A stretch of DNA of 64,000 nucleotides, from assembly GCA_905178155.1 (NCBI GenBank), contig CAJINV010000003.1, forward strand, positions 8,662,179 through 8,726,178. The letters are read 5' to 3'. The notes beneath the pieces were generated by a model. The model saw nothing but the letters and a program-made list of their open reading frames with translations, was not told where the DNA came from and did not search any database. The position numbers and the translations under genes were made by a program. Shown here piece after piece: positions 1 through 64,000 of the stretch. Numbering within the stretch: the stretch's first letter is position 1; the number at the start of each line of letters is the position of its first letter. This DNA is from Amoebophrya sp. A120. Taxonomy: Eukaryota; Protista; Dinoflagellata.

Positions 1-1019
1 CTGCGAGGTGAAAAACCACGACACAATGTGGCCACTGGCGGCCTTCGAATCCCCGGCCCAAATGTACTCCGCCGCAACCCCCCTAGCGTTCGGCTCCCTG
101 TGCTCCTTCTGCGCACCCGTGCGCCGGTGGTAAATGACATCCCGGCGAATTGGCGCAAATCGGCCGCGCTCGCCCGAACCATGCTCCTCCTTCGACATTG
201 TGTGCGTGGCGGCTAAGTATCTGAATGTCTTCAAGAAACTAGAAAATAAAAGCGTAGCAGGAAAAAGAGACAGCTTGCTGGAGGAAAAAAATAAAAGTGC
301 TGGCGGCGATCATAGATCTAAACTAATGCACGAAGATGACAACAGAGGCGCACTGACAACCAACGCTCTGAGTGCAGTCTGCATGGGTGAGACGGAAATA
401 GGTGGTCGCTGTTTGGAAATAGGATGCGCATGGCCGAGGGCATGCGATATATAAGACAAGACTTTCATCATGAGCGGCCTACGCGCCTACCGCGGCTGTT
501 TTCCGCTCTCCGGCAATCTACGGTCTAAAACGATCCACGGCTCGACGATTCAAGTGCGGGCCACTAGCGCAGCCAATTTAAGAACGTAATCAAGTCAATA
601 CTCCAAGCCTACGGCGGAGATCCAAGCGCCTGCTAAGTACCTAGAGCGATCGGGCATGGGGCTAAGGCGTTCGACTTCTATCTTCTTTCAAAAGAGGGCT
701 CGGCCTGATGCAAGTGTGCGCCGTCCCCCTAGCGGGAGCAGGTGGCGGCGCGCATGCATGTTCACGCGGAATCTGCCCGAGGTGTGTCCCCTGCCAGGCA
801 TGATTTACCGCCCCGCGCGTCGTGCGCTCGGGTCGCGGTGTCAATCGCTTCCAGATCAGATGCCGTTTGCAGTTTATGCCAAGTTACGTCGCGCTGCCCC
901 GTGCGCTGCTTCCCCGCCCCAGACTGTGAACTCTGTGAAAATTGCTCTTTCTAGCGCAAGTTTGCGATGTCAAACCGAGCGGGCGAAGCTAGTCGAGTCT
1001 CGTCTAATAACTATAGAAG

Positions 1020-36856: not shown

Positions 36857-38593
36857 TGGTGTCGCCGAATCTGTTTGTGCTTCCAGAGTCCTCCCCGTCG
36901 TGCAGAGCGTATCTTGGTCTAAGTTGCCAGCAGATGATCGTCCCTCCTGGCTGCCACATCTAGAAATTGCTGGAAAAGAGTCGACAGTGCGAAGCTCTAT
37001 CTGAGAAGGGCTGCGTATGGTCGTGTGAAAAACTACCTCCAGCCCAAAAACTCACGCCAGCCTCTTGTCATGCGTCGAGAACGATTTGAAACGCACTGTA
37101 TCTGTACCCCTGATATTAAGTGTCCTTGTCCTCCACCTTCTTATCAGCGATTTTTTTTCATCGTACAGCGAAGCTCATTCGCATTAACATTCCTACGCAG
37201 CGACGTTTTCGCAGCCTCTTCCTAGTCATGCTGCGGGCTTGCAGCACGTCATCTAGATCTAGACACGTCGTCCCTGCTGTGCTTTATCCCAGAAAACGCC
37301 TAAAGAATGGAGCCTGGATTAGCATCGAGTAGACCGCACATGACGTTCAGGAAGGCATGTGGTAAGGGGAAGGCCTCCCCTGTGGGGCGCGCGCGTCTGG
37401 ACAGGTGTTGCCACGCACTCGGTAGTTCTAGTTACCGGCCCGCTTTCATCAGCCGCTTTTGGATTTGCATCATGCGAGAGTGTCCCTGTGCTGTGGCCGC
37501 CAAAGTCGTACCTAATCGCAGCGACTGCACAACTAGTACGAGCCGAGCCTTGTGGTCACGCGAAACACCCTGCAATTCTGTACCAAGGTGAGCTCGGGGT
37601 AATTTTGTTCGGGACTCAGACCAAACAAGGCCGCTTGCCTCTGGGGTGGTAACATTTTTACACATCAGGATAAGACGACGCAGAGCTTTACTTCTGGCCC
37701 CGATGGCAGAGTCGCGCTCGAACGTGCTGGCGGCGCTGTCGCATTCTTATGCCGACGTCCAACGGAAATCAGTATCTTCGTCACTGGCTTACCACTGATT
37801 TTTCGAATAAAAAAATGCCGAATCATCTGCTTCCTTTCGATTTCGTACCTCGATCCCCATCACAATCTTCTTTAGATACAAGAGTATCGATGTAGGAAAA
37901 TAGCACTGCTAGTAGTACTAACGCTCTTGTTGCGCCGCTAGACCTACCTCTGCATGCTTTTCTTAGGTTTGAGCTTTCTCCATCTTCATGATCGCGTGCT
38001 GGAGTATGTTAGTGTATCTGTACGCGCCGTAATGGCGATGCTCAGCCTCGTCACCATGCGAATCTCCATGCCAAAGCACGCTGACGACCGCTATGCGGCG
38101 AGAGAAGGAGCATGAAAAAAGAAATAAGTAACTTTCAAAAACTAAGGTTTCTGATATTGATTTCGAAGGAGTCGATTGTTTGCGCCATCATACCCGACTT
38201 TTCCATCTTCGGCGTGTTATCACTGCCTGAGGCAGCATCGAAAACCCGAGCCCGGAAACAGGACCAAGTAGGAGCTCCTGCGGCTTCTTCGTCGGGGATT
38301 TTTCCAGTGCCTGGACTATCCTGCGCAACAACGTCCCCTCCACGAACCCAGGGCTCCTGTCAACATGCTGATTTGCAATTACAGGAACGCTGGCAATGCG
38401 CAACATCCCCACGACAGGCATTCTCAGCTGCGTTCTGAGATTCTTGGCAATGCTGTGCACCGGATAAGGAGACGGCTTTGTGGTGCGGATGTTGTCCTTG
38501 CTAACCTGCACCACAATATAGCGAAAAGCTTGCCATGCGTGACTGCCAAATCTCCTGGCCTTGTGTCGCAGAGCTCCCAGCAACTTGACTACC

Positions 38594-43785: not shown

Positions 43786-46725
43786 TCACTCACTTGGATC
43801 CGCACTCCATACAATAGTTGCAGGCGCGTGCGCGAGCTTTTGTTCGGTGTCTGATGCTGCTGCCTGATCTCGTCCTTGGAACGTCGTGCGGTGGGATTCA
43901 TCATTTTGTGGTAGCAACGTACTCACTGGCGCGTTGCCTGTGCCTTTATCCTTGTCCGCGCGGTCGTGTTCTTGTTGCGGTTCTTGGTGTTTTTGTTTTA
44001 CGCCTACTTGTTCCAGCACCGGAGGTGACGTCGAAGACAAGTTTTCGTCTTGTTTGTTACCGTGGTCGTTTGGAGCAGCTTGACCGGTTACCGCTGCCGC
44101 CTCTGTGTCCAGCAGCTTGAGCATTTGTTTCGCGAGCGCTGCACGCTCGGCGGCTGGGACATGCTGCCAGTTCGCGGGGTCGAGCAAATTCGCAAATGCC
44201 GTCGTGACATTGTGGTGCGCCGGCTGGTCTGCGGTTGCCTTGTCGCCCGTGCGCGCCAGCCAAGACGGCAGCACAATTTGCCACAGCGCCGCGCGTCCCT
44301 GCTTCTGCACCTCGTCCCGCCGGAGCGTATCGGACAATGTTTGCACGACCTGATCCTTCAGCTGCTCGTCCGCGAGCAAGCCATGCAGTGCCTGCCTCCC
44401 CAAACGGGTGACCCGGTCTACGGCCTCCTCTGTAGTGACTATCTCGTACAGGCTTTTCCCGGTATATGAGAGTGCACAACTCCAGACCCACCACAACTCC
44501 TCTTCCAACTTATACTCATTTGTCATGCAAAAGCATCAAAATCAAAAACTCTATTTTGATGACACGTAGTGAGTAAGACCTGCCTCGCGTGTGTTCAAGT
44601 GGTGGCTGCGAAAACTGAAACTGCATTGTGGCTTGTACTGCTCGTGCTTTCTTTCAACCAACAAGCCGATGCCCTTCATCAAACGAGCGGGCAGGCGGGG
44701 AGCGCAAGAAGAAGTGGCGCGCAAGAACGACTTCTCATCTACAACTCATACGGTATTCTGCTTCACGCCCTCCTCTTGCACCACCTGCTGCACCAGCGAC
44801 GAAACCTGCTGCAGCACCTCCTCCCGCTGCAGAACCTGCACCACCAGCACGCCCAGGGTTTGCTTCACGGCCTCCTGTTCTACGAGCAGCTGGATCCACT
44901 GCACGCCGAGCTCCGTCAGTTTTGCAAGCACCAACGGCTCCTGGAGCAGGTCTGCCACGCGACCCGCGAGCGGGGCTTGGAAATGCTGTAAGATTTCCAG
45001 AAGCCACAGGCCCACCTGCTGCTGGACAACCGGATCACGAAACAGCTGCAGCAGCACATCTTTCGAGAAGAGTGCCGTATCAAATGTAAAAATGTCTGGG
45101 TCTGGAAGATTGCCAGGTTTGTCATGCACATTTTCCATGACCACTGATGTCTGTGATGCATGCCGTAGCATCACAGATTTTTGGAGCGCTTCCTCATGCC
45201 TATTCCGCATGACAAATGCCACTTCCGCGGAGCACAAAATATACTCCTCTTACTGGTCACGCAATACAGATTTTTTTAGAGTCCAGCGTTAGCATCACAA
45301 GTTGCATTCTTCCAGACCCAGACACTTTTACATTTGATATGCCGTGCTGTCCTTCAATTCCGGGTTCTGGACCACTTGATGGACCACCTTGTTGGTGTTG
45401 TCGGAGACCGTATCAAGTACCCAATGCCACCGCAGATACATCACGCGTCGTATCACAGTTAAGAAAGATGATCATCAAAGCCCAACCCACATGAACTACC
45501 GACCTGTACAAAACAGAGGAACAAAGATTTTTCCGGAGCAACAAGATCGGCCTCTTCATAAATGTGTAGCTGTCTTCTATAATTTTCGTGCCAGGAGGAC
45601 ATCAATGAAATGAAGGGAACAAAAAGCGCAGGCACGAGTAGAAGTCGTGCGTAGAAGCAGCGACACGCGTCGCCTGCTCAGTTGATGTATACAGGATGCA
45701 AAAATTGTCTGCAAAGAAGGCAACTACGGGGAGCGAGGTGTCACTGAGTCGTGCACCATCTTCTTGCAAACAGTAACAAGTTAGCTTATAATATGCTCTC
45801 TGGGCCCCCGCCACTTCTTGTGCACTCGCTGATGCAGCATGACCAGTGAGAAGCGTCTCTGGTCGCGTCGGCCTTGCATTGCGGGGAAGAGATGAACTTT
45901 GTTCTGCACGATATTTCCGGCTACCGCTAGAACCCCGACCACTGCTGCCAGCGCAACCCGCGGCAACGTCCGGGCGCGCGCATGAAGGTCACTCAATTGC
46001 TCCTGCATCCGCTCGTACGAGGAATGCTCTGCTGCAGTCCCAGTGGAGCTCGTGGCACCGCCCGCGTAGCTGCTGCCGCGTCCAGAGGAAGTAGTCGTCG
46101 CGCTGGACGATGAGGGCGCGGGATGTGTTGCACCGTCCACGCCACGGGCTATGTGGTCCACCACCGGTGTCGTGCCCTCAGTGCCTTTTCGAGTGCGCTC
46201 GTCATCTTGATCTTCGCTCCTCCCATTTTCACCATTGCCACTGTAACCGTAAGCGCTGCCTGTACTGTAAGCCTGGCGGGAAATGTGATTTCCAAAGAAT
46301 GTGTCTGGGCGAACTAACAAGTTACACTGATGCTCAGCAGCGAAAAAAGGAAAATGGTCGGCGAAGCCCCTAATAGGCCTACTTTGCGCTGCTCGAAGTC
46401 CGTCGAAGCTACTTTGCTGCCCTCTCTTCTTCAGAAGTAAACATGGAAGGGGTAGAGGGCATGATCCGACGAAGAAATTCAAAGTATCTATTTTTGCGTG
46501 CGACCAATGTAGCATTGAGCTTTTCGACACGTTGTCAGAAACAGTGTTCGAGATGAGCTTTCTCGCCGAGTTTAAAACCGGAAAACCGGTGCGGCCCTGA
46601 GGATTGCAACCGTCCCTCACGGGCCCTCGTCCTGTTTCACTGAAAACCAATTGACCGCATGACCCATATCGTCGACGGAGTCTCCTGCTCGTTGTCAATA
46701 ACTGAAGTTGCCTGATCATGACCAT
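43786..46725 (-). CDS. 4-exon single-TM protein with helical L/Q/V-rich repeats and a possible mitochondrial presequence
   Basis: In-frame joins AGN/VMYLRWHW, DSTA/LFSKD and QNT/GKSLYE; Arg-rich, acid-poor N-terminus MVMIRQLQLLTTSRRLRRRY. Confidence 0.7.
44465..44750. mobile_element. Introner, perfect DR CGGTA
   Basis: tatgag ends; left end tatgagagtgcacaa shared with 54597; frame restored. Confidence 0.85.
45078..45339. mobile_element. Introner, TCTGGGTCTGG family, perfect DR TGCCG
   Basis: TIR tatcaaatgtaaaa.tgtctgggtctggaaga; close sister of 12173-12442; frame restored. Confidence 0.93.
45451..45913. mobile_element. Degenerate introner
   Basis: Only TATC...GATA ends remain; removing element plus 5 nt completes a TM helix in frame. 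Confidence 0.5.
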
Positions 46726-48305: not shown

Positions 48306-50831
48306 CTACAGCTTCGCGACCAACTATGGAAGCGTCAGGTTTGTTGAAATCGTCAAAGTTGAAATAATTTGTCATGCATAAAATGCAATACAAAAAGTGA
48401 CTCTATTGCAGAGGACCCAAGGGAGGCAGATTATAGTCCTGGCAAGGGTCAAGAGTTGGGCTGCTATCTAGCATGACAGAAGGCAGCTCTTTTGCCCTAA
48501 ACCGCATGACAGACTCGCTTCCAGGACCGGGAAAATTTGCCATGCACCGACTACAAACTATAGGCGTAACTGGTATCCGTTTTATGCATGGCAAACTATT
48601 TCAACTTTGACGATTTCAATCCTGACAGTTCCATACCAACTTATTCGTATGAGTCGCGTGCAGAACATCCACGGCTTCCGTGCAAATTCGTTGGACCAGT
48701 TCCTTGCAGGTGGGGACGTCGTCGATGAGGCCAATGCTCTGCCCACAGCTCCAAACGCTGTCGTCGGCGTTCCCGGTCTCCTGGAAGGAAATGCGGTACT
48801 TGGCCCCCTTCACAAGGTCTGCGATCGCGGCGAAGTTTCCGGGGTCCTTCCGTTCCCGAGCACGTACCTCCTCCGCGCACGCATTCTTGTACACTCGCTC
48901 GGTATTCGAGAGCGTCGTAAAGACCAGAGTCGTATCGTACTCGTTTGCCGCGCACAGTGCTTGCTTGATCCCGTCCTTAATGGGCGCCTCCTTTGTCGCC
49001 ATCCACCTGGTTCCCATATTCATTCCCTCGCATCCGAGGGCCAACGCGGCCGCCAGCTGCCGTCCGTCTGCACACGCGCCAGAGGCGATATAAGGAATGC
49101 GCAATTTCTTCGCCGCCTTTGCAAACAAAACCCAGTTGGTTACGTCGTTTTCTCCTGGATGGCCCCCACACTCGTAACCATCCATACTAATCATATCGGC
49201 TTAATTATGGAAATTAGAATTACAAAACACCATCCATACTTCTAGGGCAATTATTGCGAAGTAGTAGATAGGCATAGGGACGAACTACAGATGAAGGCAC
49301 GATCTTCATGTGTCATGTGTGTCCTAGGTGTCGGCACCGGCACCACCGCTGCTACGTATCATTATAATTGCACTTTATTTACATTACATATCTCATTTTT
49401 ATGTTTACGAAGCCGGTGATGTTGAGTGACCTACGTCACGAAACGTTCATGAATTTCTGTAATTGTATCTTTTTAGTGTGCATTAAACTTCTAGCTCCAT
49501 GCCAACACGCATACAGGCTCGGGGAAGGAGAGCCACTCCTACAATTTAGATCTGTTTGCCACGACGACGGCTTTTTCTGCTTATGTTGATGATTACTAGC
49601 GCCGACACCTGAATCCCTCCTGCGATCATCGGCTTTATGAGTAGCTTTTGGTGTAAGAAGTTGTATGCAATTCATAGCCCATGCGCGCCGCCGTCTCGGC
49701 ATGCTTGATGGCAACGCACTTGTGTATGACCACGCAGCCGTGTTTTTTGAACAACTTGATAAATTTTTCGGGGTTCCGACCCGCGGTCTCAATGATCTTG
49801 ATTCCCTCGTCGAGCACTACCTGCGCGTATTCGTCGTAATTGGGAGGCGTCAGCATGGGAAGCAGCGTCAGGTTTACCGCAAGAGGCTTTTTCGTCAGGC
49901 CTTTCGCCTTTCGTATTTCCTGCCGTAATGCCTCCGGGTTCGGCGGTATGGAAACGCCAGGATGAAAATCGACAAAATGAAAATGGAAATGCATTTGGCT
50001 AACGTGCCAGAACTTAAAAGCCTGCGTTTGGCCAAAACGAGCAAACGATTGGAAAGATGAAGATCTCTACGAAACTTCTCAACTTTATTATTGCATACAA
50101 AAGAGAAGACGGTAGAAGGGTTTCGGGTTTGGGGTCTCGGGTTTTTTTCAAATCGACAGCAGTGCATTGGGCACGCAATTTCTACGCGGCGCGTGACACA
50201 TCTTCCGGATCTCTCGGCCAACTTTATAGTCGCGCAGTTTGGAGCAAGGCAGTACGAAGTGCGGCGACGCTCCGGTTATTGGCAATCAACAGCCGCACCT
50301 TTCTTGTCGGTGGCTCCAATCAGGGCTACAATCTGCTTACTTTGCAAGACAGCTTCACTTCTATGTAGTCTCGTTTCTGTTTCATACTATACAAACTACT
50401 CATTTTCGTTTTGAGAATGCCGAACTTCTCACAAGTCCCATACGTTGTGTCAAAGCGGTAATGGTACCCAGTCCTCCGGCCTCGGATACTGCTGCCGCCA
50501 ACTCGGCATAACCGACGTAATGCATTCCGCCTGTATGGAAGTGTCTGTGTCAGGTGGGAGACCATAATAATTTGCAAAATGTAAATGCGTAAAATACACG
50601 ACGCGATGAAATTGAATGCACGTCTTCTTGCACCAGAGAAATACAAATAGTGGCCCGACGAGACCCAGATTGTTCAGAATTTCTTTTGCTTTTCAATCGA
50701 CTTTACAATTACATTTGTGATTTTAAGATTTCCCACCTGAGATTCACATCCCCATAGCCTTGCATCAGGGGATACTCGACTCCCATGAGCTCTGTAAATC
50801 TTGTCTTCAGTTTCATGCCGACCGTCGCCAT
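48306..50831 (-). CDS. Nitronate monooxygenase / 2-nitropropane dioxygenase family flavoprotein, 5 exons, C-terminal AKL
   Basis: KTRFTELMGVEYPLMQG/GMHYVGYAELAAAVSEAGGLGTITALTQ/PNPEALRQEI..KPLAVNLTLLP..IIETAG..HKCVAIKHA..MG/ADMISMDGYECGGHPG..IPYIASG..MGTRW..WSCGQSIGLIDDVPT..NKL/VAKL*. Confidence 0.93.
48325..48635. mobile_element. Introner, TATGG-GTCAGG family, perfect DR CCAAC
   Basis: About 60-bp TIR tatggaa..gtcagg..ttgaaatcgtcaaagttgaaa..tttg.catgcataaa. Confidence 0.93.
49206..49676. mobile_element. Degenerate introner, NMO intron 3
   Basis: TATG...CATA ends; removing element plus 5 nt gives MG/ADMIS. Confidence 0.65.
49947..50442. mobile_element. Introner, NMO intron 2, no AG acceptor
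   Basis: TATGG...CCATA ends; left end has the family TIR; restores conserved TQP-x-PE. Confidence 0.85.
50534..50756. mobile_element. Introner, DR GCCTG/GCCTT (GC-AG compatible)
   Basis: TIR tatgg...tcaggtggga; restores QGGM. Confidence 0.9.
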
Positions 50832-53234
50832 TCTACCGCTTGCTATTATGAAAGAAATTAAAAAAGAAACGAAAAAAAAAACTCTTAGGCTCGACCAGCG
50901 CGGGCCGTGTCGGTGAAACCAATACTAGCCGAGAATCAAGGAAATCTCGCTACAGCAGGTGGCTGATGTTTCTCCTCTAGCGGCAGGCTGCACGCAGCAA
51001 AACCAGCTAACACTAACTAGCTGCCCAAAGTCTGATGTTGGTCCGTGTAGCCCAGCGGCTCACGGGTGGGAAAGCAAACTCCAACTCTCTTTCTGCCGTC
51101 TGAGTCTGTATCAGTATCTTCAGTTTCGCAATTATGGTCTCAACACCCTCTCTACTCCTTCGTTTTTTCTCTTGCTTTCAAAGTGTGTCTCTATGTGAGC
51201 GACTGCCTCTGTCCTGATGATCTCCGTAATCGCTTCCACCTTCTTCAAGAAGAACTTCAACTTTTTCATCTAGACACAGCAATAAAGCTCCTCTTCGAAG
51301 AAGTACACAAATAGATACTCACCAACGGCAGGCACTGTTGACGAGCATGAGATAGTGTTAGTGATAGAGAGCTAGTCTGCCGCACTAGTGAGTTTCAGCC
51401 GACAAGAAAGTCTCGCACTTTATTCCCCAGATACACAGGAAGTGGGTGCGTGACGCAAGATGCGAGTTCCGACGACATTCACATGATAGCCCTGGCCTTG
51501 GGCGCCTTCTACTACCATCATTATATTTCAAGATGATACATAGACTGGCAATGCACAGCCGCTAGCTGAGAACATGTCTGATTAGATGAAGTAGATTGAG
51601 GACCACGACAAGCACGAACATGGAGACCACGGTCTGAGATGCATTTTATGTGCTTGGTGGAATCACCAGTAGAATTGGGATTGGATGTAGACTAGACCCC
51701 ACGCCCTTGCGTCTGCTTCAACTTTCGCGTCTGATTGATGTGCATGTCGCTTTCATCATCCTCTCTTCGGCTTCGGGGACGACTGCCAGTGTCGTGACAG
51801 CATTAGACAAAAATCACAAAACTAATCCTGACGGATTACGACTACTTCAATGTTGCGTTGGACTTGCACTTGGATGAAGAGAGTTGCAAGCTCCAGCTGC
51901 TCTTGGAGTCGGTCGCGTCGTAGTACATGCGGACAGGGTCATGTTGGACCGACCGCCGGCTGGTAAAAGTGAACTTGGGCAGTAAAAACTATCGGACGAT
52001 CTCTTGCTCCTACTTACAGTGAGTCACTAGCTTCTTCAATATGGAATTGTAATGTATATGTACAAAAGGATAACATCAAAAATGGTGAAGTGAAAAGTTG
52101 TAAAGTTACAAAAAATCATCTGGAGTATGACGGAGAATCTATGTGATTCCACATCAAGAACTTCGCCAACAGAAACGGAAACGTGCACAAACAATGGAAA
52201 CGCGAGCCCTTTTTCTCGTGCTGGCTCCGGTAAAAAAAATCATGAAAATTGTCGTAGTGTAACTAAAGCTAAACCTATGGAAAAACTGATATGCTAGACA
52301 TTGATCCTGCAATTGTGATTTCTAGTGCTTCTAATGAGAACATGTCAAACTCAAATAGAATGATAAAGCTGTAGCTCCTGAAGGATTCGCATGCCCTAGT
52401 AAACTGATCACGTTGCTATCTGCAGCTCATACATGAGATACAGCTGCCAATTTGGCAAGAGGTTCCAGCAATATGATGAAGAACGATAATGAAGCCTCAA
52501 CATGCATGCTTATCGCTACATACTCAAACTCATACAACAACAAAAGAAAAAATTAATGCATCGCTTGCGCCAGTTAACAGATGAAGCGCTTTTTTTGTTG
52601 TCTCCTCCGCTTCAAGGCGCGCCGGACACCCTAGCGGGGCTGCAAGTAGATCCGTGGGCGGAGCCAGTGCATCGTACGAAAAAAGTGCTTCTGTGTAACG
52701 ATTAAGCAAGGCAGCTTTCGGTTTGCATCACAAGCGTAAGTTCGTTCCATGACCAAAAATAAAAGAACAGTTCTCACGCGTGATTCCATGCAAGAAAGGG
52801 AAACACGTTTCATCAAAACCGCTGTCCTACATCATCTGATCTACTGGCGTGACTAACTCTAACACTGCTGCACTGCATCCTCGCCAGCATGAAAATTTCA
52901 TTACGGTGAACTGCTTTTTTCATGCGATACAGTGATCTTGTTGTCGAACTGCCCAGGTATCGTAGTTGAAGTTCGCTCCTTGTGGCGCTGTCAGGCGTTA
53001 CATTGATTGCTATCGCACGAAGATTTTGTGACGCAAGACTAGCAACAAAAGCAAAAAGGGACGACAGCTTCGCATGCGCATCTGGCATTAAGTAGCATCA
53101 CCATCAGAGGTTCTTTGGCAGTTGGCGCGTTGAGGACCTGTCACGCGAAGCCAATTAATCGCGTCTCGGGACGAGGGAACAAGGGATGATAGATAGACAT
53201 AGATGAGTAGTGCTTCTGCATGACAAATCACGTA

Positions 53235-56200
53235 TTAAAACAGCACTGAATGTAACGCTTGAGAACGCCATAGCACTGGAAAGCTGCTCCTTCTCGAAAG
53301 CTTCTTCGCATCCTTGCGCAAGTCCTCTTGGCGGGCTGGATCTTCCTCGTCGTTCGCCTCAATCCGCTTTTCCAGGGCCACCTTAGCCCACCGTTCGATC
53401 GGATGGTCATCCCGCAGGTAGTTGAGTAGATCAGTTCGCGCGAAGCCGTCGCTATCCATCGTGTTGATAAACTTGTCCGCGTCGACGCGCGCACGAAGGA
53501 CGCCGCGTGGTCCAGCGGACATGTCTACCTCCTGCGGAAAGAAGAAGCGGTCGCCTTGGACATACGCCAGCGCGTCCGGGAAGGTGGCAACGAGCCGAAA
53601 CGCCGGTAGCAGGAACATCCAAAGGTTGTACCACCAAGTTGTCTGCCCCGTGGCCGCGAGTTTCGTGTGCACGCCCCGCTCGTCGTACGGGTTCTCGCGC
53701 CAGGCCCGCATCTGAAAGAGCTCTTGGTCGAAGCTCTGCCGCATCGAGTATCCAGGAAAAAAACTGTGTAAGTGACTCTGTAATGCAGAACATGCGACAG
53801 AGTTACGTCTGTCATGCCAGAAAGCCACGAGGTCTCTTTTCATTATGTGTGCCATGCATGACAGGTTTTCTCTGTCATGTAGAGCAAACTTCTGATGCTG
53901 TAGGACAAAGAAAGTTACACTAACACAGTTTTTTTCTTGGATATCGAGAACGAAAACTGCACCGCCGTCGCGGCGAAGTGGTACTTTGTCCGGAAGCTGC
54001 AGCGCGAACCAGGGGTAGGAACCCCTTCCAGCTGCAAGCGATTCGCCACGTACCCCGTGTCCTCTTCGGTCAAGGTTCGATTCACGTACGCCGCGTGCTA
54101 TGGCAAGAACGCCTCTGGAACCACTCAAAAGCACCAAACAAATCTGTAAACCTGCTTCCGAATGATCTATAGTAGTGCAGCACATGTGAAGCAGCTCGCA
54201 CTGTTTTTAATTCTATGATAAAAAGGGGCCAACTACACAACATGCAAATGAGGCGCGTCTTCACACTCGCAAGCGAGCCTTTTCCTTCGGAGTGTCTGTG
54301 CCAGGAGATGATCTCCTGGCGCAGACACGCATCTGTAGTCTTGCATGTGACACACATCTCGGTATGTGTCGGGACATGCAAGAAAGACACGCTTCAAATC
54401 AAACTACACGCAAATGTTGTATTACTGGACCACGCGTCGATGGCTGTTGATAAATAAAAATATGCTCATTTTCATCGTCTTCAACAGATTTGTTTCATTT
54501 TGAAAAGTTCCCTTCCTCGCTCTGCATACCTCGAGTTCGTGGCTGACCAGCGCGGCGAAGAGGTTCTGCGGAGGGCATGCCTGGAACCAAGACAGGTATG
54601 AGAGTGCACAAGTCCTCGCTCTCTGAGGGCTGGACGTCGTGCATTTGCATTTTAATAGGAGCCGAAGGCCACTTATGCTCGTGCCTGATCTGTAAAAATA
54701 TAATCGGGTGCCATTATTTCTAACAGTAACTACAAGTCGCGCTTCTGCTTCCGCGGCCCCTCAGGAAGCTGCTCTATCATGCTGGTGCTTTAAAGTCGTG
54801 CTCTGTAGCTTTTTTTTTCTGGCACGGCCGGAGCGTGCTCGCGTAGAAAGAATGGCACTGATGATATTGATGTTGAAAGAACAAAGACCTCCTGGCCCAG
54901 TACGTCGTGCTTTCTAGTTCTACTTATTCAATGAACATTCATTATGAAAAGAGAGGACGAACCGCTGTGCAAGCCGATAAGAGAGGGTGCCGCTTCACGC
55001 TGGCCGGCGCCCGGAACTCAATCCGCGTGTCGCCCGGCTCCGTAAACACAGTGCAGAGAGATTTTCCCGATGCTTGCGCCGGCAGCAACGGCTCGGTGGT
55101 CGCGTTGGTGGCCCCCGCAGCGCCCCCCAAATCCTCCTGCAGGAAAAGTTGCGACGACACGAGACCACCCCGGCTCAGGGTAGCAGGAAGGTTTTCTGCG
55201 GTGTTGCCCGCAACAGTCATCGAGAGGGACTCCAAATTCGCGGGGGCCAGGTTCGGAACGACCATCGAGAAGTCTTGTCGCCAGATGGCCTCGAGGTCCA
55301 CAAAAATTCCTCCGTAGCGCTCGACGACCGCGAAACGGACACGCTCCTTGACGCGGGGCGCACGCTGCTTCGCGACGGCCGCCGGAACGGAGCCGGCGGG
55401 CGTCGAGGGGGCGCGCCACACGCTGTACTCTGACGGGTCCAGCAAAGCCGGCAAGCGGGTGGGATCCAACACGTTCACCTTCCAGCCCTCATCTTCCGGG
55501 TGCAAGTACTGGAGCTTCCGGATACTCGCGACCTGCAACGGGTTCGGCGGAAGGTGCTCCACGTACACCCAGATTTTCCGGGGCACCCAATTCATGTGCT
55601 GATGCACCCACTGCAGCCACGCTGCGGTGAGCGCCTGGTACCTGGGGCTCGCGGCCGAGTCGGAATACTGCGCAATCCACCCTGGCGCTAACGGGGAAGC
55701 AGACGCGCTTTCTCTTGTTGCGATTTTGGTTTGCCCGTGTTCCTGCTGTTGCTGCGTGAAGGAAGCAGCCCACGTTGACGCAGAAGTCCAAACCGCGGCG
55801 CCAGGCTCGGTCGTCTCTTGAGGCTGCAAATCCGCGGACGTCGTGCTGAGTGACTTATGGTGGCGAAGTGGGTGACTTTACAGAATGCTGCTAGCCACAA
55901 GAAACATCGCAGTCTGCCCTGAGAATTTTCTACATTTGGTTTATACTGATCTTTGTGTTTTGCCATGCGAAAATGAACACGTCAAGTACCACTGATTCAA
56001 CTTCATGGGTCGCCCGGGGTGATTAGATTGATCAGATAATTAAACAGTTTCACTGTGCCCCTTCCTTGCATCACAAAAAAAGCTGTATAGGAGAATTATC
56101 CGCGCGACAAGTATATTACTTTTTTCCTACCCACGGCTACCAGCAGTCGGGAAGGTCACTGGCTTGCTCTCGATACTGGTGAGAAGGCTCAACCAGATCA

Positions 56201-58281
56201 GCAGCTTCGGCCTCGCGTGAAAATGAGGTTTGGACGAAGCTATTTTCAGGACCCATGGACCCCGGATTGTGCACGCTCAGATTGAGTTCCGGGTCATCGG
56301 CATAGACGATGTACTTGCGCGGCATTCGTCGCTTGGAGACGACGAGGCCGCGGTCGGACAATATTTCGTTGTTCAGCAAGTACGTCTGCGCGTGCACAGT
56401 TTCTGCCTGCTGCAACTCCACCAAACTGCTATGGCGCACTCCGGTGATGCTCGCATACCAAATCAGGGCCCACAGAAGAGAGAACAAGATCAAAAAACCC
56501 CACCACCCGGTTGTCAAAAACAAACAGGTTTTGGGCATGGCCCAACCAATCGCATCCCAAATCGTGCAGATGGGGCACCCGTTCCGAATAATGCAGCAAC
56601 GGTCGCGCGCCAGCAAATCGTACTTTCCCCCGATGATGATAAATCCTTCCTTGGCCGCGGGATACTCGATAAGCAGCTCGTCTTCTTGGGTCTTCGTAAT
56701 AGTAGAATTCGTGCTTGTAGTTGTTCCACTTTGCGGGCCTGCAACGGTCGAGAGGGCTCCGACGTGTCCCCGCGTTTGTTGCTGTTCGCCAACGGGAGAA
56801 GCCGAAGTGCCGGATCCGGGGGCAGCCCGGCCTTCGCGGCTGATAGGCGCGCCCCGGTAGGCCAACACTGTGCCTCCGTCGCTGGTTTGCGACCCGAGCG
56901 CCACCATCTGCGCCGCTGACCCCCGGATAGCCTTCCCGACCAGCATGGGGCGCTCGTTGTAGGATTTTGGGGGCGAGGGGGGCCTGCAGCACCCAGCACA
57001 CGCCGGAGTCTGACCTTGCTGCTCGGCAATGTCGCCGTCCAGTGCAGCGGCACCCGCCATCGCACTGTAGAAATCATTCCCTGCTGATGAGCGGCGCGAG
57101 CTGCCCGACACTGCACTGCGTTCGGCGGCACTCGCGCGATCATTGGCGGCGGGAGCTCCTGCGCCTTGCTCGGAAAGCAAACTTCTCGGAGCTGTGCCCC
57201 GAGAGTCCGGATCCACAATCGCAGTGCGCCCCGTCGGACTCAGATCCGCAGACACCACCAGTGGCTTCCCGGTCGGGATCACCGAGGCCATTCGTCCGTC
57301 GTCTTCCTGAGCCAGGGCATTACCGTCGGCATCCACCAAGGCCTCGCCCGTTTTCTCATTCCGCGCTAGTCGTTCTTGTCGACGCTGTTGCTTCTTCAGC
57401 TCGTGTTCCTCGCGAGACCAGGGGTAATGATAGGAGGGAATGTAGCCGGAAGGCATCACATACTCCGAGGACACCGGTGGCTCTTCCCCAGGAGGCGGGG
57501 CGGGGCGGAACTGGTAGTTGTCAAACACGCGGTCGAAAGACCGAAACACGCTGGAAACACTGCGCACCGGCTCGGGGCGAACAAACGGCACAAACTTCGG
57601 CGGCGCGAACCGCTTCGGGTCCCGATACGCCCGGAGCGTAGCACGGCCCTCAATGCTAGTGACGTCGTAGCCCATCAGGTGGAGGTCGTAATCGGTGTAG
57701 TCGATCAACTGAATGGTGAGCAGCAGGTAGAAAAACCAAGAATAAGCCGCCACCAGTGGGATCAGCCCGGCCGTCGTTTCGAAGGACACGTACAAGGCGT
57801 ACCCCTTGCGTGCGAAAGGGAACAGGAAACAAAACAGAAAGACCTGGGCGATGAAAAACGAGAGGATCAGCCAGGCGGCCCGCTTGCGAATGTTTTTCCG
57901 GATCACCCGCATCCACGAGGGGTCCGGCGGCGCTGGGGGCAGGCACTTTTTCCGTTCCTGCGCCGCGTACGCAATGCCTTCTGGCCACAACTGCACGTTG
58001 CGCTCGAACGGCTCTTGCGTCACCCCGTCCGACGCGAGTTGAAAGCCATCGAAGAACTCCTGGGTCTGCAGCTCCTCCGACCCAGGGTGAACAAACGCGT
58101 CGTTCTCGCGCCCGAGAAAGAATTCTTGCGTCCGCAGTGTCGTCTGTTGCTGCATGGCCAACCGCTTCTCGTCGGCGGTCGAGAGCTGCTGCTGCTGCGC
58201 CACGACGTCCTCCAGCATGTCATCCCCCTCTAATGCGTACTCCCCCCGCGGCGCTCCTGGTTGCTGCTCCGCAACGACCAT
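53235..58281 (-). CDS. Multi-TM protein fused to a GT32-type (DXD sugar-binding / capsular-polysaccharide-synthesis-like) glycosyltransferase domain
   Basis: VPRKIWVY...WKVNVLD...RVRFAVVERYGGIFVDLE...SWFQACPPQN. In-frame joins SHQ/LSTT, HPL/SWFQ, ELE/(H)AAY and FS/MRQS. The true 3' end may lie further downstream because another TATGG end occurs near 53272. Confidence 0.72.
53749..53943. mobile_element. Introner, perfect DR TCGAG
   Basis: TIR tatcca.gaaaaaaactgtgt.agtg; frame restored. Confidence 0.92.
54099..54528. mobile_element. Degenerate introner (GT-AG compatible)
   Basis: G-TATG...CATA-G boundaries; in frame. Confidence 0.65.
54597..54979. mobile_element. Introner with decayed DR
   Basis: tat.....tgcaca..gtcctc at both ends; HPL/SWF in frame. 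Confidence 0.7.
55856..56175. mobile_element. Introner with decayed DR
   Basis: gtgactttacagaatgctgctagcc versus gtgaccttcccgactgctggtagcc inside TAT ends; fuses ORFs 56137-58377 and 54942-55829. Confidence 0.82.
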
Positions 58282-60002
58282 CCGGCTCAGCGTTGATTTT
58301 TTTTTTGGTCCCTGATGTCCTTGCTCTTGTACGCGCGAAGGAAATAAAAGTACTAGACGTGAACCGTGTATGCACAAACAACACGGTCCTTGCGTTCTTG
58401 CTGGCGCGACCGCGTCGTGTTATTTTTGATGCAACAAGGAAATCATGGAAAGACAACTTTTTCAATTTTCAAGTTTTTGTAGATTTAGCGGAGTTCTTGT
58501 CTCTTTAATTTAATCGCATTGGAATTCCGAAGATCCGCTTCCTTTTATGTTTTTCGTGTCAAATAGATTATGGGATTTATGTAGATTTAGACCTGGATTC
58601 ATAAATTAAAAAGCACGAAGCTTGAACCAATAGAGGCGAAAAAGAGGCGGGAAGATAAGTCATCATCTTTATGCAGAACGCACCAAGCTACTTCTTCTTG
58701 CAAAAGCTCAAGGAATGATCTGGTCGCTTCCGAAAACAAGACCTCAAACTGTAGCAAATCAAATGCGTAGACCGATTGAATTTCCTTTCACTGCGCGACG
58801 AGCGACGCACAAGCACGACCGAGAGGTGACAGAAAATGTCTACTTCCTTGCTCCGCTCAACCACCGAGTACGTATACGTAATACGACCGAACCCGAAACG
58901 ATGAAAAAGAAAATGCTAGGACCTTGCAGAAGGAGCTATTCTGATGTCTATTTTCCGAATATGTTTGTAGTTGTGACCGATACGGCGTATCCGATGTATC
59001 CTAAAAGTTATGACGTCCTTTTGAATACAATGAAGCAACTGAATAGGATGAGAGATGACAGCTGCTGGTACGCAGACTCACCGGCAGACCACGACCGAAG
59101 GAATCTGTCACAGCGTCGCCCGCGACCACATCAAGAACAAAATAGTACTTTCTCGTCTTCAACAACAAGAAATGTTGTGACTATAGTTAACCAAAACGCC
59201 GAGGATTTTTGCGCCACTTCAACTTCTAAAAGTAAGCCGTGAGGGAAAGAGATCACCTCAATGGACTGGAGGTCCTCGCGGTGAGTACACCTTTTGACAC
59301 TCGTTCTACAAAGAAATCACGACGAAGATGACAAAATTGAAGTTTTTCTGAGTCTCAATCTGATTGAAGAACATGAATAGCAGTAGCCAGCACGCACTAC
59401 CATGGGTTGCGCTTGACCTCGCTGTTTGTGCGAAAAGTAGATGAAAGGACATCCATCTCAACAAAGATGAACAAGTAAGTGTAACAAGATCAAAATAGTA
59501 ATAGAAAACCTAAAAATATTAAACCCACAAAACCCAGAAACCCTTTGCAGCGACGGACAGGGACCGCAGTTTGATGTAAAAAGTCGCGACGTCCGCTGGC
59601 GAAGGCAGGTCGGATCTGGTGACAAGTGGCGGCGCATTCCATATTCCGGCCCTAATTCACAATAACAAGTAAGTGTAAGACGTATGCATATCTATAAATA
59701 GAGACAAAAAGGCAACACGGACAACAAGGAAGGCCCTTCTAGGTTAGTATGGAGGTCTGTGCTGGCAGCTTCCTTTTTATAATTATATACTGAAGACACT
59801 GATGATGAACCAGGGAGTGGGAGCTCCAACTCTGCAATCTTCAATGCGCTTACGATATACAACGTGTTAAAGACACTACACCAGAAGTGCGTGAGCACTC
59901 GTTCCCGTAAAAAATCAGGGCTAGTAGAAATACATCTCCGTCGAGTTGAAGTATATCAACATCAAGAACATGCTTCTTCTTCAACATTCCGACTTCAACA
60001 GC

Positions 60003-63000
60003 TCAATTCGTCGTAGCGAGGTGCGTTGCGCCGAACTCCTCTCCCTTGCGCACCTGTGCTTTCAGGTCTGGTAACATTGCATCAAGGAGTTGCTTCTCCC
60101 TGTCGGGTGGCATGCATGAGAAAAACCTCCACCTCGAAAATAATACATATATGCCCATCATCATGCGGCGCAGCTGGAAATTCAAGTTCAAATTCCTGGA
60201 TTCGGACTCGGATGCGCGGTCGCCTCTTACCTGGTACATCTTGCCTGCACGACCTGCAGATAAAACACGAATAGAGCCGCGGCCAGAGGCATTAGATGAC
60301 CAAGTAGAAAAAGAAATACATCGTAACAGGCACCAGAGGGACCAGCACTAGCAGTGTACTACACGTTTAAATACAACACGAAATAATATGATTCGCGTCT
60401 GTTGATGGTAGGCACGTCTACAAAGTAGCAGCCGCTCTGGCTGTAAGAGCATATGCAGCGCTGGACGCTGTCGTTCCTCCTGTGGTCTGTATCTATCGTC
60501 CCCAGCTGCGCGAGCGCCACAGATATGGACACTATGGTGGCTCGAGGTTCTGGAGGTGTCTCTTCAGTTGATAGACATGGTGCACGTATGTATCTCCGCG
60601 ATTCCCATCGTGTTCAGAGTCACTGGAGAGGCAAAAAAGCCGCAGCCTGAGTAAATCTCGGAATCCACAAATGCGCAAGCCTTCTGCGTGTGTGGGCCCT
60701 TGAGTGCAGCTGCGACTTTCGCAGTGAACGCGGCACCGGCGTGTGCCAGTGTATGGAAGTGTCAGGCGGCAAAAAATCGAGGAGAAAGAAGTTCAAGTTG
60801 TAAACTACAATGCAGAAAATTTTACGGCCACGATAAGCAAGTAACACGACACCCACTGATGATTACAGCGCTATCGCTAAGGTATGAGTATCTATACTAG
60901 AGAGCTCTGGATCGTCCAGGTCATCCATAAAAACCTGTCGCTTCACAAAGAAAAAAGAGAAAAATGGCGGCTGCGCGTCGGCCAACTGATTGCAACGGCG
61001 CATGTAAAATTCATTCTCCAATCGACAACAGATTGATTCGCGCCTTTCTTCAGAAGCCACAAGTCTGTCTGTCAACCATAAAGCAGTTCGGAGACCCCAC
61101 AGTGCGAGGCTTATTCTTATTGAGTATCGATCGTATTATTATTTGCAGCTGCCTCGGGGGCCCGCCGCGGCCGCGCTGTCTTGCGCGTCGCGTCGCAAAG
61201 CAAAAAATGACGCCAACATGTAAAGAGCAAAGAATCCTGCTCGCAAAGAATAAGAAAAAGAAGTGTTATGATGCTATATTTATAATTTGTCATCGTCGCT
61301 AACGCTATCTCATCTGTACTTGATGCCCTTGCACCATGAGGTTGAAATGCACACTGACAAGAACGATATCTTCGCACCTGGCACTTCCATACATCGACAG
61401 TGTTGCGGATCCAGCGCCGTCCTTGGCTTTCACAACCTGTATTTTTTTTTACCATTCACGACTCATGAGGGCGAGTTGTAAAGTCAAACCAGGCTTAATA
61501 TGCACAAGCTTCGAAGTGGGTAGGAGCGCGCAAAAAAAGCGTAAAAAAATTGGAAGTCAGACGTTTTCGTTTCCATGCCCCTGCCGTTTTTCGACGTTCT
61601 ACTGATGCGCATCCACCACAATCGACATTGAACATTTGCGCGGACTCTTGGAAAGGTCGCGATCCAAGTTCATTTTGAAACAGAAAGAAAAACAAAAAAC
61701 GGAACCACTCACCGTTCCGACATAGGTAAAAAACTATTAATCAACAAAATTCAATGTCAATTCTGTAGTACTAAACAAAAATAACCATGCGTGTTGTCAT
61801 GCAAAGCTGCATGCCTGAGCCTGCAACCTTGAGCTTAGCAAGGGGGAGAAAGGTACGTTGTTACCCAGGATATACGGAAAAACGTTCTAAGTACCTCATC
61901 GCCCCCGAACTGAATTCTTTTGGTGAGCGCGTCCAGCTCCGCATCCGGAATGCCATATCGATCTGAAAGTCTATTACTTTGAAAAAAAAGTGCCCCTGCC
62001 TCGCTCCCAGAAGTGCGAAAGGCTAGTAATGCGCAGTTTCCTAGATGACCTTTTGTCTACTTCTTGCACCAGAGACCTAGGACCAATTTTTTTGCTCCGG
62101 ATTTTAGGCTTGCAGGGCACGACCACAAGCACGACCTCTTAAGTGAATGGCAAGTCGAAAAAATGTTGCTGGGACTTTGTAAAGCGCAGCACATGCACAT
62201 CTTTGTTACTCTGGATTGCAAATTTGTCTTTGTGCTGCTGGTATGTCCAAAATGTGGAGTGTTTCAACTGAAAAATTTTCATCTGGCATCGCAAGCACTT
62301 CCGCTTTCTTGCGTTGAGGTAGGCGCACTTTTCGACATGATAAAACACTCCTCAACAGCACTAAGCAGGTCATAGTCATAAAGTGTGCAGAAGCACGTGC
62401 AGCTTGTTGCAGGAGAGAGCTTACTACATCAAAATCAACTGTAGGTGTCGCCGTAGACGTAGTGCTTGTGGTCCTTGTTTTCTGTAGAGTTGCGGCAGGT
62501 TAATGTAGTGGCAAGACTCGCACGTTGTTGTCATGTCAGGAAAAGTCAAAGCGTCGCGCTCGCGCCATGCATACATGTACTATGCCGACCTTTTTACCTA
62601 GAAAAGAAAAGACAAAGAGTAGATGCATTGTAGCGTCCGTCTCTAATCGCGAACGCGGCGACCATGAACAAATGACGGCGGGCATTTTTTTCCTGTGGCA
62701 GCGAAAAGCGTCGTGGTCGAAAGTGTTTTCATCACCATAGGCCAGAAACATGACTCAGCAGCGGAAGAATCGTGGTTCCCGCGTGCCCTCCGATGACCGG
62801 CACGTCACACGAATTCACGTCGACTTTCAGTTTCTCTGCGACGAAAGTGTTGGCCCGAGTGACATCCAGAGTTGTCACGCCGAAAAGTCGCCGCTTATCG
62901 TAACAGCCTGTGATGTTGTAGTTGCAGCATATTTCAATATGCTCTGCGGAGGACCAAGATGAACAGGATAACTTTATACGAAAAATCGAAGCAATGCCAC

Positions 63001-63905
63001 GAGTGTGGGCTTTCAATCAACGTCCTGTGGTGTATCGTCTATCGTGCGGCTTTCTGATTTACAAGCAGGCTGCTAAAGTTCATAGATGACAATCATACGC
63101 AGGCACCGATCTTAGAAACAAATGCAACACTACGCCGAGCATCGATTCTGAGAAGTACGAAAAATCTTGGAACCTGCGCTAGCGCTAGCGTCGCGCTTTA
63201 TAAATATCACTGCTGTACTAGTTGCCTATTCTTCCAACTTTCACTTTTTGTATTCGGCGAAGGCAGCGACTTATTTATGAAACAGTGAAGGAGTCGTGCA
63301 AAAATTCAGAAATTATCAAATGATATAAGGCTTACGACGTACCGTGTTTCGCAAGAACCGCTTTCCAGATCGGCACCATGGAGTTCACGGGATTTGAGAT
63401 GACACAGAACATTGCGCTCGGACAGTTTTTTGCGCAGGCGGTGGCAATATATCGCGGAAAAAAAATAAAGCGTAGCAAAAATACAAACAAAATGGTGAAG
63501 AAGATCATGCGTGGCAAAGGCAAACGCATATGAATGCCTTGCCCCCGACATGATTACATAAGACAACCACAATAAATGCTACGCGCTAGTTTTTTTTCAT
63601 TCTGATACGAGATCCGCGTTGATGCCAGCGTTTATCTTGAACAAATCGTCCCGGGTCATTCCGGGCTTCCGCGGTACCCCAGCAGGCACGACCACAACAT
63701 CTGCGCCCCGCAAGGCAGCGTCAAGCTCTCCCTTTTTGTAGCCACCGACAACTTGACATGGAGTGGAAATGTGACTGATATCCACCGCGACTCCTGCTAC
63801 CACCGGCGCCACGTCGTAGAGGCTAAGCTCGTCGATGTTTGGATCCTGCTTCAGCAGCAGAGCTAGCGGCTGCCCGATCCCACCCGCGGCACCGCACACC
63901 ATTGC
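60003..63905 (-). CDS. MDH: NAD-dependent malate dehydrogenase (mitochondrial/glyoxysomal type), at least 7 exons, 5' end outside the window
   Basis: [91 protein letters not shown]../..[36 protein letters not shown]../..[22 protein letters not shown]. Plain GT-AG introns at 62908-63342 and 61437-61894. Confidence 0.96.
60111..60573. mobile_element. Degenerate introner, last MDH intron
   Basis: acctcca..cctcga near both ends; MS/DREKQ in frame. Confidence 0.7.
60752..61391. mobile_element. Introner splitting the MDH SM/AHAG motif, no AG acceptor
   Basis: TIR tatggaagtg(t/c)cagg; flanks CAGTG/CATCG. Confidence 0.92.
61956..62739. mobile_element. Degenerate introner, DR TGCCA/GGCCA
   Basis: Weak TIR; HVSG/(I/L)PDAEL in frame. 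Confidence 0.6.
63450..63607. mobile_element. Degenerate introner in MDH
   Basis: TATC...GATA ends followed by A-tracts; DL/ATACAK in frame. Confidence 0.75.
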
Positions 63906-64000
63906 ATCCATGCAAAAAAATGATCCCGGACAGTTGGAAAAGCAAAAATAAAACTCCCCCGCCCTAGTATCGCTTTCCTTTTTACTCATTTTTTTTTTTT

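What the first reader, a model, noticed from the sequence alone, without database searches (positions are those of the whole stretch)
60747..61396. Obligate non-AG acceptor inside the conserved MDH motif GSATLSM/AxAG
The conserved motif can only be rebuilt by joining TCG AT|G GCA, giving an intron GT...CT or a shifted equivalent. There is no AG in the ~35 nt before the junction, and the next downstream AG would delete about 10 codons. A core enzyme therefore appears to depend on non-canonical removal, which is the strongest internal evidence that the system is functional.
Basis: partly seen in the sequence, partly recalled or inferred. Interest (0 to 1): 0.8.

Follow-up and report, generated by a model that had tools for sequence, protein, structure and literature searches.

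The report
Fixed-register non-canonical introns in Amoebophrya
A 645-base, likely transposon-derived intron without the usual AG end is cleanly skipped in likely transcript contigs of a malate dehydrogenase gene from a marine parasite (likely Amoebophrya); such introns are already known there, but 13 of 14 examined here fit one fixed cut position next to their paired ends, which would make their unknown splicing mechanism testable.

Summary
Contigs of four likely-RNA runs skip exactly 645 nt here and a DNA-like run does not. The spliced frame is an intact MDH with SMAHAG, identical over 311 residues to public model P0001. No in-frame GT/GC-AG or AT-AC pair rebuilds the motif.

It has 30-nt terminal inverted repeats (TAT…ATA) and a decayed 5-bp target duplication: an introner of the kind described in Amoebophrya A120 (PMC7789003). 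The class and the gene model are already known, 4 of the gene's 6 introns in the window are non-canonical, and an MDH paralogue exists.

What looks new: 12 of 13 non-canonical RNA joints, plus 1 of 1 out-of-sample spliced protein, fit one register, N-TAT…ATA-NNNN. The paper calls these sites variable. Removing a nested intron restores its host's end pairing. Likely mechanism (inferred): a relaxed, U1-less spliceosome reading U+2/A+3, with a candidate branch A at −7.

The parts
60748..61392 (-). Focal non-canonical intron, 645 nt, GT..CT in the shared register (slides to TA..TG or TG..AC)
   Evidence: RNA joints in X1-X4, none in X6; registers
61364..61391 (-). 5' terminal inverted repeat arm, starting TAT at intron +2
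   Evidence: I1: 30 nt, 80% complementary; stem forms in MFE and centroid folds
60752..60779 (-). 3' terminal inverted repeat arm, ending ATA 4 nt before the 3' cut; A at -7 is position 60754 (candidate branch point, inferred)
   Evidence: end duplex -37.0 kcal/mol, 0 of 1000 shuffles as strong
61392..61396 (-). Upstream copy of the decayed 5-bp target-site duplication (4 nt exonic, 1 nt intronic)
   Evidence: 3 of 5 positions match the downstream copy; 5-bp length
60747..60751 (-). Downstream copy of the target-site duplication (4 nt intronic, 1 nt exonic)
61393..61436 (-). MDH exon ending in the first two bases of the Met codon
60575..60747 (-). MDH exon after the focal intron
60003..63901 (-). 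Malate dehydrogenase coding region in the window: 7 exons, 312 codons open; first exon lies outside the window
   Evidence: loose end at 63901
63446..63608 (-). Non-canonical MDH intron, 163 nt, GT..TT, same register
61952..62740 (-). Non-canonical MDH intron, 789 nt, CT..GC; excludes a cut directly at TAT
61968..62343 (-). Nested non-canonical intron, 376 nt, TT..CT, inside the 3' arm of the 789-nt intron
   Evidence: low-depth joint in X1, X2, X3; its removal restores the host's end pairing
60107..60574 (-). Non-canonical MDH intron, 468 nt, CT..AC, same register
62908..63342 (-). Canonical GT-AG MDH intron, no significant end pairing
   Evidence: 243 of 1000 shuffles as strong
61437..61894 (-). 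Canonical GT-AG MDH intron, no significant end pairing
   Evidence: 789 of 1000 shuffles as strong
55852..56176 (-). Non-canonical intron with no slide, GT..TC; fixes the register
52977..53273 (-). Non-canonical intron with no slide, CT..GA; fixes the register
37012..37673 (-). 662-nt intron, TT..CA; out-of-sample test of the register
   Evidence: only 1 of 24 cut positions reproduces library protein P0119

Best explanation
The 645-nt insert has paired TAT…ATA ends, is likely a non-autonomous DNA transposon (introner) that duplicated 5 target bases, and is skipped in likely-RNA contigs, likely cut 1 base before TAT and 4 bases after ATA by a predicted relaxed spliceosome, which restores the SMAHAG codons. 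Shown: the 645-nt skip, the open MDH frame, the end pairing, a 5-bp duplication in sister elements, and one register shared by 13 of 14 non-canonical introns. Cutting after base 4 of each duplicated copy leaves exactly one copy in the mRNA, so any insertion is removed cleanly whatever the target sequence; this would explain why end dinucleotides look random. Inferred, untested: the major spliceosome does the chemistry; it keeps the canonical U+2 and A+3 but no longer needs G+1 or the 3' AG; the end-to-end hairpin brings the ends together in place of the undetected U1 snRNA; the A at -7 is the branch point and the 3' cut is measured from it. My odds: real RNA-level introner 0.93; fixed register in this window 0.9; spliceosomal catalysis 0.6; branch at -7 0.35.
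For: Skip in X1-X4 and none in X6. Register: offset 1 fits 12 of 13 non-canonical joints, offset 0 fits 9, offset 2 fits 6; two joints have no slide; 3 exclude offset 0 and 6 exclude offset 2. Out of sample, only offset 1 of 24 cut positions reproduces P0119. Target duplication: 13 of 68 hairpin candidates have a perfect flanking 5-mer, 0 of 68 at 3, 4, 6, 7 or 8 bp, 2 of 68 at 2 bp. End pairing: at most 20 of 1000 shuffles as strong in 10 of the 12 introns as they lie in the genome, and in an eleventh after its nested intron is removed (813 to 2 of 1000); not in the 2 canonical introns. Similar ends recur in the window, e.g. at 48635, 29132, 17234, 2892, 2074. PMC7789003: A120 repeats begin TAT; all 9 predominant A120 site classes begin N-T; A25 repeats begin TTA and all 9 predominant classes begin TT, which by my reading puts T at +2 and A at +3 in both strains; U2, U4, U6 and 83 of 89 spliceosome proteins found, U1 and the minor spliceosome not. 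A fixed short branch-to-3' spacing is known in Giardia and Trichomonas (PMC6679479 passages).
Against: The focal intron alone allows three registers. One joint (45113/45289, low depth, inside a multi-copy element) does not fit. One search showed 15 of 28 joints; 13 were hidden. Intron 55852-56176 fits the register but has no significant end pairing (376 of 1000), so a strong hairpin is not always needed. T+2, A+3, T+4 and A-7 are also the transposon's own ends, so their invariance is not independent evidence for spliceosomal reading; one intron has ACA and two ATG in place of ATA. A at -7 in both canonical introns is only 2 cases. The hairpin candidate scan is noisy (50-75 hits in shuffles against 68 real); only its 5-mer result is informative. 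RNA status of X1-X4 is a guess and they share one study. PMC7789003 reports splice sites as variable relative to the hairpin and target repeats of 3-5 nt; PMC12130899 Dataset S2 lists mixed sites and duplications of 2-5 bp (22 of 58 A120 rows seen).
Confidence: 0.6

Rival explanations
1. Same intron and register, but removed by a spliceosome-independent or separate machine that measures from the base of the RNA hairpin (an endonuclease plus ligase), as proposed for euglenid nonconventional introns, which leave as circles.
For: End pairing in most introns; nested removal restores the host stem; neither G+1 nor AG kept; U1 undetected; euglenid precedent (PMC11282704 passages).
Against: One intron fits the register without a significant stem. 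The cut places TA at +2/+3 as in canonical GTA, apparently in both A120 and A25 despite different repeat starts (my reading). The spliceosome is nearly complete.
Confidence: 0.3
2. The skip is a reverse-transcriptase template switch across a strong hairpin between short direct repeats, so the real mRNA keeps the insert and this gene copy is dead.
For: Strong stem and a 2-nt repeat at the junction; all RNA evidence is from cDNA-type contigs of one study.
Against: Two joints have no repeat at all; one register across introns; six joints together give an open, conserved 312-codon frame; the joined contig is far deeper than the retained one (618 against 34 in X1; contig depth is a poor measure).
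Confidence: 0.04
3. The element is excised from DNA in part of the population, or the insert is an assembly error.
For: It looks like a cut-and-paste element; X1-X4 are not on record as RNA; X6 may be the window's own source.
Against: X6 has no joint; the same contigs also skip the two canonical GT-AG introns; X1 holds retained and partly spliced forms as expected of pre-mRNA; X5 holds an identical 247-nt piece of a neighbouring intron.
Confidence: 0.03

Closest known systems
Amoebophrya A120 non-canonical introns / introner elements (Farhat et al. 2021, PMC7789003)
   Same: Non-GT-AG ends, terminal inverted repeats starting TAT, short direct repeats at the borders, mixed with canonical introns in one gene, RNA-supported.
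   Different: The paper says the cut is variable relative to the hairpin and gives repeats of 3-5 nt; here one register and one 5-bp length fit. This element is longer (645 nt against a 240-nt mean), its repeat is about 30 nt (8-20 in the paper) and lacks the A-run of the family consensus.
A120 TIR-DNA introner families (Gozashti et al. 2025, PMC12130899 Dataset S2)
   Same: TIR elements making introns; a 5-bp duplication is listed for 3 of the 22 rows I saw (one by manual inspection).
   Different: Sites taken from annotation are mixed within families and no common register is given in the rows seen; I could not assign this element to a family.
Euglenid nonconventional introns (PMC11282704 passages)
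   Same: End-to-end pairing, non-canonical borders, target-like repeats, unknown machinery.
   Different: Euglenid consensus is CAG at +4..6 and CTG at -8..-6 with pyrimidine|purine junctions, released as circles; here TAT at +2..4 and ATA at -7..-5, product unknown.
Micromonas MITE introners and Fritillaria non-canonical introns (PMC11282704, PMC7789003 passages)
   Same: Transposon origin; splice sites taken partly from the duplicated target; spliceosome adapted in Fritillaria.
   Different: Those keep specific splice dinucleotides; here neither terminal dinucleotide is fixed except T at +2.
U12 (AT-AC) introns
   Same: Non-AG 3' ends and a short fixed branch spacing.
   Different: No AT-AC pair gives the observed skip; minor snRNAs are reported absent.

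Membership tests
Amoebophrya introner element (Farhat 2021) | Non-GT-AG intron supported by RNA | tested here: met
   (runs are likely RNA, not on record as such)
Amoebophrya introner element (Farhat 2021) | Inverted repeat joining the 5' and 3' ends | tested here: met
   30 nt, 80%; 0 of 1000 shuffles
Amoebophrya introner element (Farhat 2021) | 3-5 nt direct repeat at the borders | tested here: inconclusive
   Only 3 of 5 positions match here; perfect 5-mers in 3 of 12 RNA-backed sister introns
Amoebophrya introner element (Farhat 2021) | A120 repeat begins TAT | tested here: met
   12 of 12
Amoebophrya introner element (Farhat 2021) | A-run about 7 nt after TAT (family consensus) | tested here: not met
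   Absent in the focal intron, present in neighbours such as 63446-63608; a description of the repeated families, while the paper also counts singleton elements
Amoebophrya introner element (Farhat 2021) | Repeated in the genome as a family | tested here: inconclusive
   Ends recur in the window with 3-6 mismatches in 20; the body has no copy in the window; no genome was held
Genus Amoebophrya (host organism) | Closest named full-length relatives | tested here: met
   Highest identity among named hits in the first exon: A25 proteins P0004 76% and P0012 75%; TAT-type repeats point to the A120 type; no rRNA test
U2-type GT/GC-AG intron | AG at the 3' end | tested here: not met
U12-type intron | AT-AC or GT-AG ends giving the observed product | tested here: not met
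Spliceosomal substrate (works like) | Lariat with a branch adenosine; snRNA dependence | not testable with these tools
   needs lariat sequencing or snRNA blocking
Euglenid nonconventional intron | CAG at +4..6 and CTG at -8..-6 | tested here: not met
   position counts
Group I/II intron or other Rfam RNA | Match to a curated RNA model | tested here: not met
   0 matches in 59400-64000 at gathering scores
NAD malate dehydrogenase | PF00056 and PF02866 domains, open frame, conserved motifs | tested here: met
   activity not tested

The most novel reading that the evidence does not exclude
The 'random' splice sites of A120-type Amoebophrya introns follow one rule genome-wide, N-TAT…ATA-NNNN. A U1-less major spliceosome has given up G+1 and the 3' AG together, reads only U+2/A+3 and a branch A fixed at -7, and uses the transposon's hairpin to pair the ends, so every new insertion is born a perfect intron and nested insertions are removed inside-out.
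Probability: 0.35. Interest if true: 0.8.

Novelty: already known. Interest (0 to 1): 0.45.

Why it matters
The intron itself is one ordinary member of a published class and is already in a public gene model. What matters is the geometry. How Amoebophrya removes its non-canonical introns (over 60% of all) is stated as open in PMC7789003, which calls the sites variable. A single register turns that into exact predictions: where the branch should lie (position 60754 here), which bases are free, and the order of nested removal. It would also let these genes be annotated by rule, and would explain how a transposon spread through coding sequence at little cost. I found no paper giving this register in six searches; figures of PMC7789003 and Roy et al. 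2023 were not visible to me and may bear on it.

Tried and rejected
No whole genome was held, so copy number and a genome-wide test were not possible. Canonical and AT-AC alternatives were enumerated and none gives the RNA product; the nearest, an AT..AC join of 642 nt, adds a residue. The Leu joins are excluded by RNA. Whole-intron folding is unremarkable (z -0.79); only the ends pair. The body of the focal intron has only short matches elsewhere in the window. The de novo hairpin scan is no better than shuffles by count. Rule-based removal of 23 candidate elements left at least one open frame in 16 and none in 7, within 90 nt each side; uninformative without RNA. A homologue search for a second gene model found nothing; the representatives search gave two short proteins, of which P0119 was useful and P0120 not. 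Pfam on 15 ORFs gave one sub-threshold match. The coding-potential map was too coarse to use. Rfam gave nothing. Two look-ups of earlier findings returned nothing.

Full report
Observation. The region is part of a minus-strand malate dehydrogenase gene. Enumerating all joins within 120 nt, six rebuild the motif GSATLSxAHAG, all removing 645 nt; three give Met (TA..TG, GT..CT, TG..AC) and three Leu; none is GT/GC-AG or AT-AC. The nearest upstream AG is about 58 nt before the junction, and both in-frame AGs from the GT at 61392 lead to stops. Retention ends the frame at 61305-61307. Met stands at this place in 114 of 118 homologues; 4 lack the motif.

RNA evidence. Eleven runs were listed and seven laid. 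Contigs of X1, X2, X3 and X4 skip 60747-61391 (slide 2); DNA-like X6 spans the stretch without any joint. The six main joints give an open 312-codon MDH, identical over 311 residues to public model P0001, so the junction is already annotated. Limits: X1-X4 are guessed to be RNA and come from two samples of one study; X6 may be the window's source; X5 (RNA on record) has a small share and no joint; X9 laid nothing.

What the intron is. Its ends are a 30-nt inverted repeat, 80% complementary, pairing better than 1000 of 1000 shuffles and closing the fold in both MFE and centroid structures, though the whole intron folds no better than shuffles. The arms run TAT…ATA (61391 to 60752). Similar ends recur in the window. 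Among 68 TAT-hairpin candidates, 13 are flanked by a perfect 5-bp repeat and none by 3, 4, 6, 7 or 8 bp; the candidate count itself is at shuffle level. This is the anatomy of a non-autonomous TIR transposon (inference). The best named relatives by identity are Amoebophrya proteins, and PMC7789003 describes A120 introners whose repeats begin TAT. Four of the six MDH introns in the window are non-canonical, plus one nested intron.

A shared register. One search showed 15 of 28 joints: 2 canonical, 13 not. A cut 1 nt before TAT fits 12 of 13; directly at TAT fits 9; 2 nt before fits 6. Two joints have no slide (52977-53273, 55852-56176); three exclude offset 0 and six exclude offset 2. The 3' cut then lies 4 nt after ATA (9 cases), ATG (2) or ACA (1). 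The miss, 45113/45289, is a low-depth joint inside a multi-copy element. Out of sample, library protein P0119 crosses a 662-nt intron at 37673-37012, and only this register, of 24 cut positions, reproduces all 117 residues. In this register +1 is G 6, C 3, T 2, A 1 and -2/-1 are free, while T+2, A+3, T+4 and A-7 are 12 of 12. It agrees with Table S4 of PMC7789003, where all 9 predominant A120 classes begin N-T. The nested intron 61968-62343 sits in the 3' arm of 61952-62740; removing it takes the host's end pairing from 813 to 2 of 1000 shuffles, which suggests inside-out removal.

Mechanism. Shown: the skip, the frame, the pairing, the 5-bp duplication, the register. Cutting after base 4 of each duplicated copy leaves one copy, so the exon is restored whatever the target. 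Inferred: the major spliceosome does this. The cut puts TA at +2/+3 as in canonical GTA; A25, whose repeats begin TTA, has TT as its predominant start, again TA at +2/+3 by my reading; U2, U4, U6 and 83 of 89 proteins are reported present and U1 undetected. That G+1 and the 3' AG are read together in the second step is recalled, not from a call. A short fixed branch spacing has precedent in Giardia and Trichomonas. Against: these bases are also the transposon's termini, so their invariance proves little; one intron fits without a significant stem; no lariat data exist here. Rivals are a hairpin-measuring non-spliceosomal route (0.3), template switching (0.04) and DNA-level loss (0.03).

Correct on removal without AG and on the product. 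Overstated on uniqueness and dependence: a second MDH named for A120 exists (P0034).

Literature seen. PMC7789003: abstract, passages, sections 11, 12 and 16 whole, supplement text parts 1-3 of 5, no figures. PMC12130899: passages; 12 of 14 supplements searched; 22 of 58 A120 rows and part 1 of 33 of Dataset S2. Passages only: PMC11453091, PMC11282704, PMC9860276, PMC6679479, PMC9004412, PMC12005148. Roy et al. 2023 seen only as a reference. Six searches showed no statement of a fixed register. Figs 3, S19 and S21-S25 of PMC7789003, which I could not see, may come close; the S19 legend already mentions 5-bp repeats.

Verdict. A real feature of an already known kind, already in a public gene model. 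The fixed register appears unreported and makes the open question of mechanism testable, on 14 introns from one window. Interest 0.45.

Noticed in passing
window 63901-64000: Public model P0001 appears to read 45 N-terminal residues through intron sequence; contigs of X1, X3 and X4 leave the window at 63901 for an upstream exon. The intron's 3' end has ATG plus 4 nt and no AG, fitting the same rule (read by hand).
   Followed up: partly
window 61968-62343: Nested intron within an intron arm; seen as a low-depth intermediate in X1, X2 and X3.
   Followed up: yes
window 60107-60574: This CT..AC intron reads GT..AG on the opposite strand, so aligners may call it a canonical antisense intron.
   Followed up: no
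window 45078-45339: TAT…ATA element with a perfect 5-bp duplication and many variant contigs, a high-copy family; the one non-fitting joint lies inside it.
   Followed up: partly
window 51100-58500: Expressed minus-strand region of unknown function with six non-canonical introns; its 760-codon ORF has no Pfam match.
   Followed up: partly
window 3284-58419: The five longest ORFs (760-1441 codons) are all on the minus strand, as in the unidirectional clusters reported for Amoebophrya; none has a Pfam match above cut-off.
   Followed up: no
window 62238-62484: Estuary metatranscriptome X5 holds a 247-nt intron piece with no differences, so a near-identical organism or element may be in that sample.
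   Followed up: no
window 62768-62906: A very deep X4 contig at 90-95% likeness with a loose end, probably another organism's MDH.
   Followed up: no
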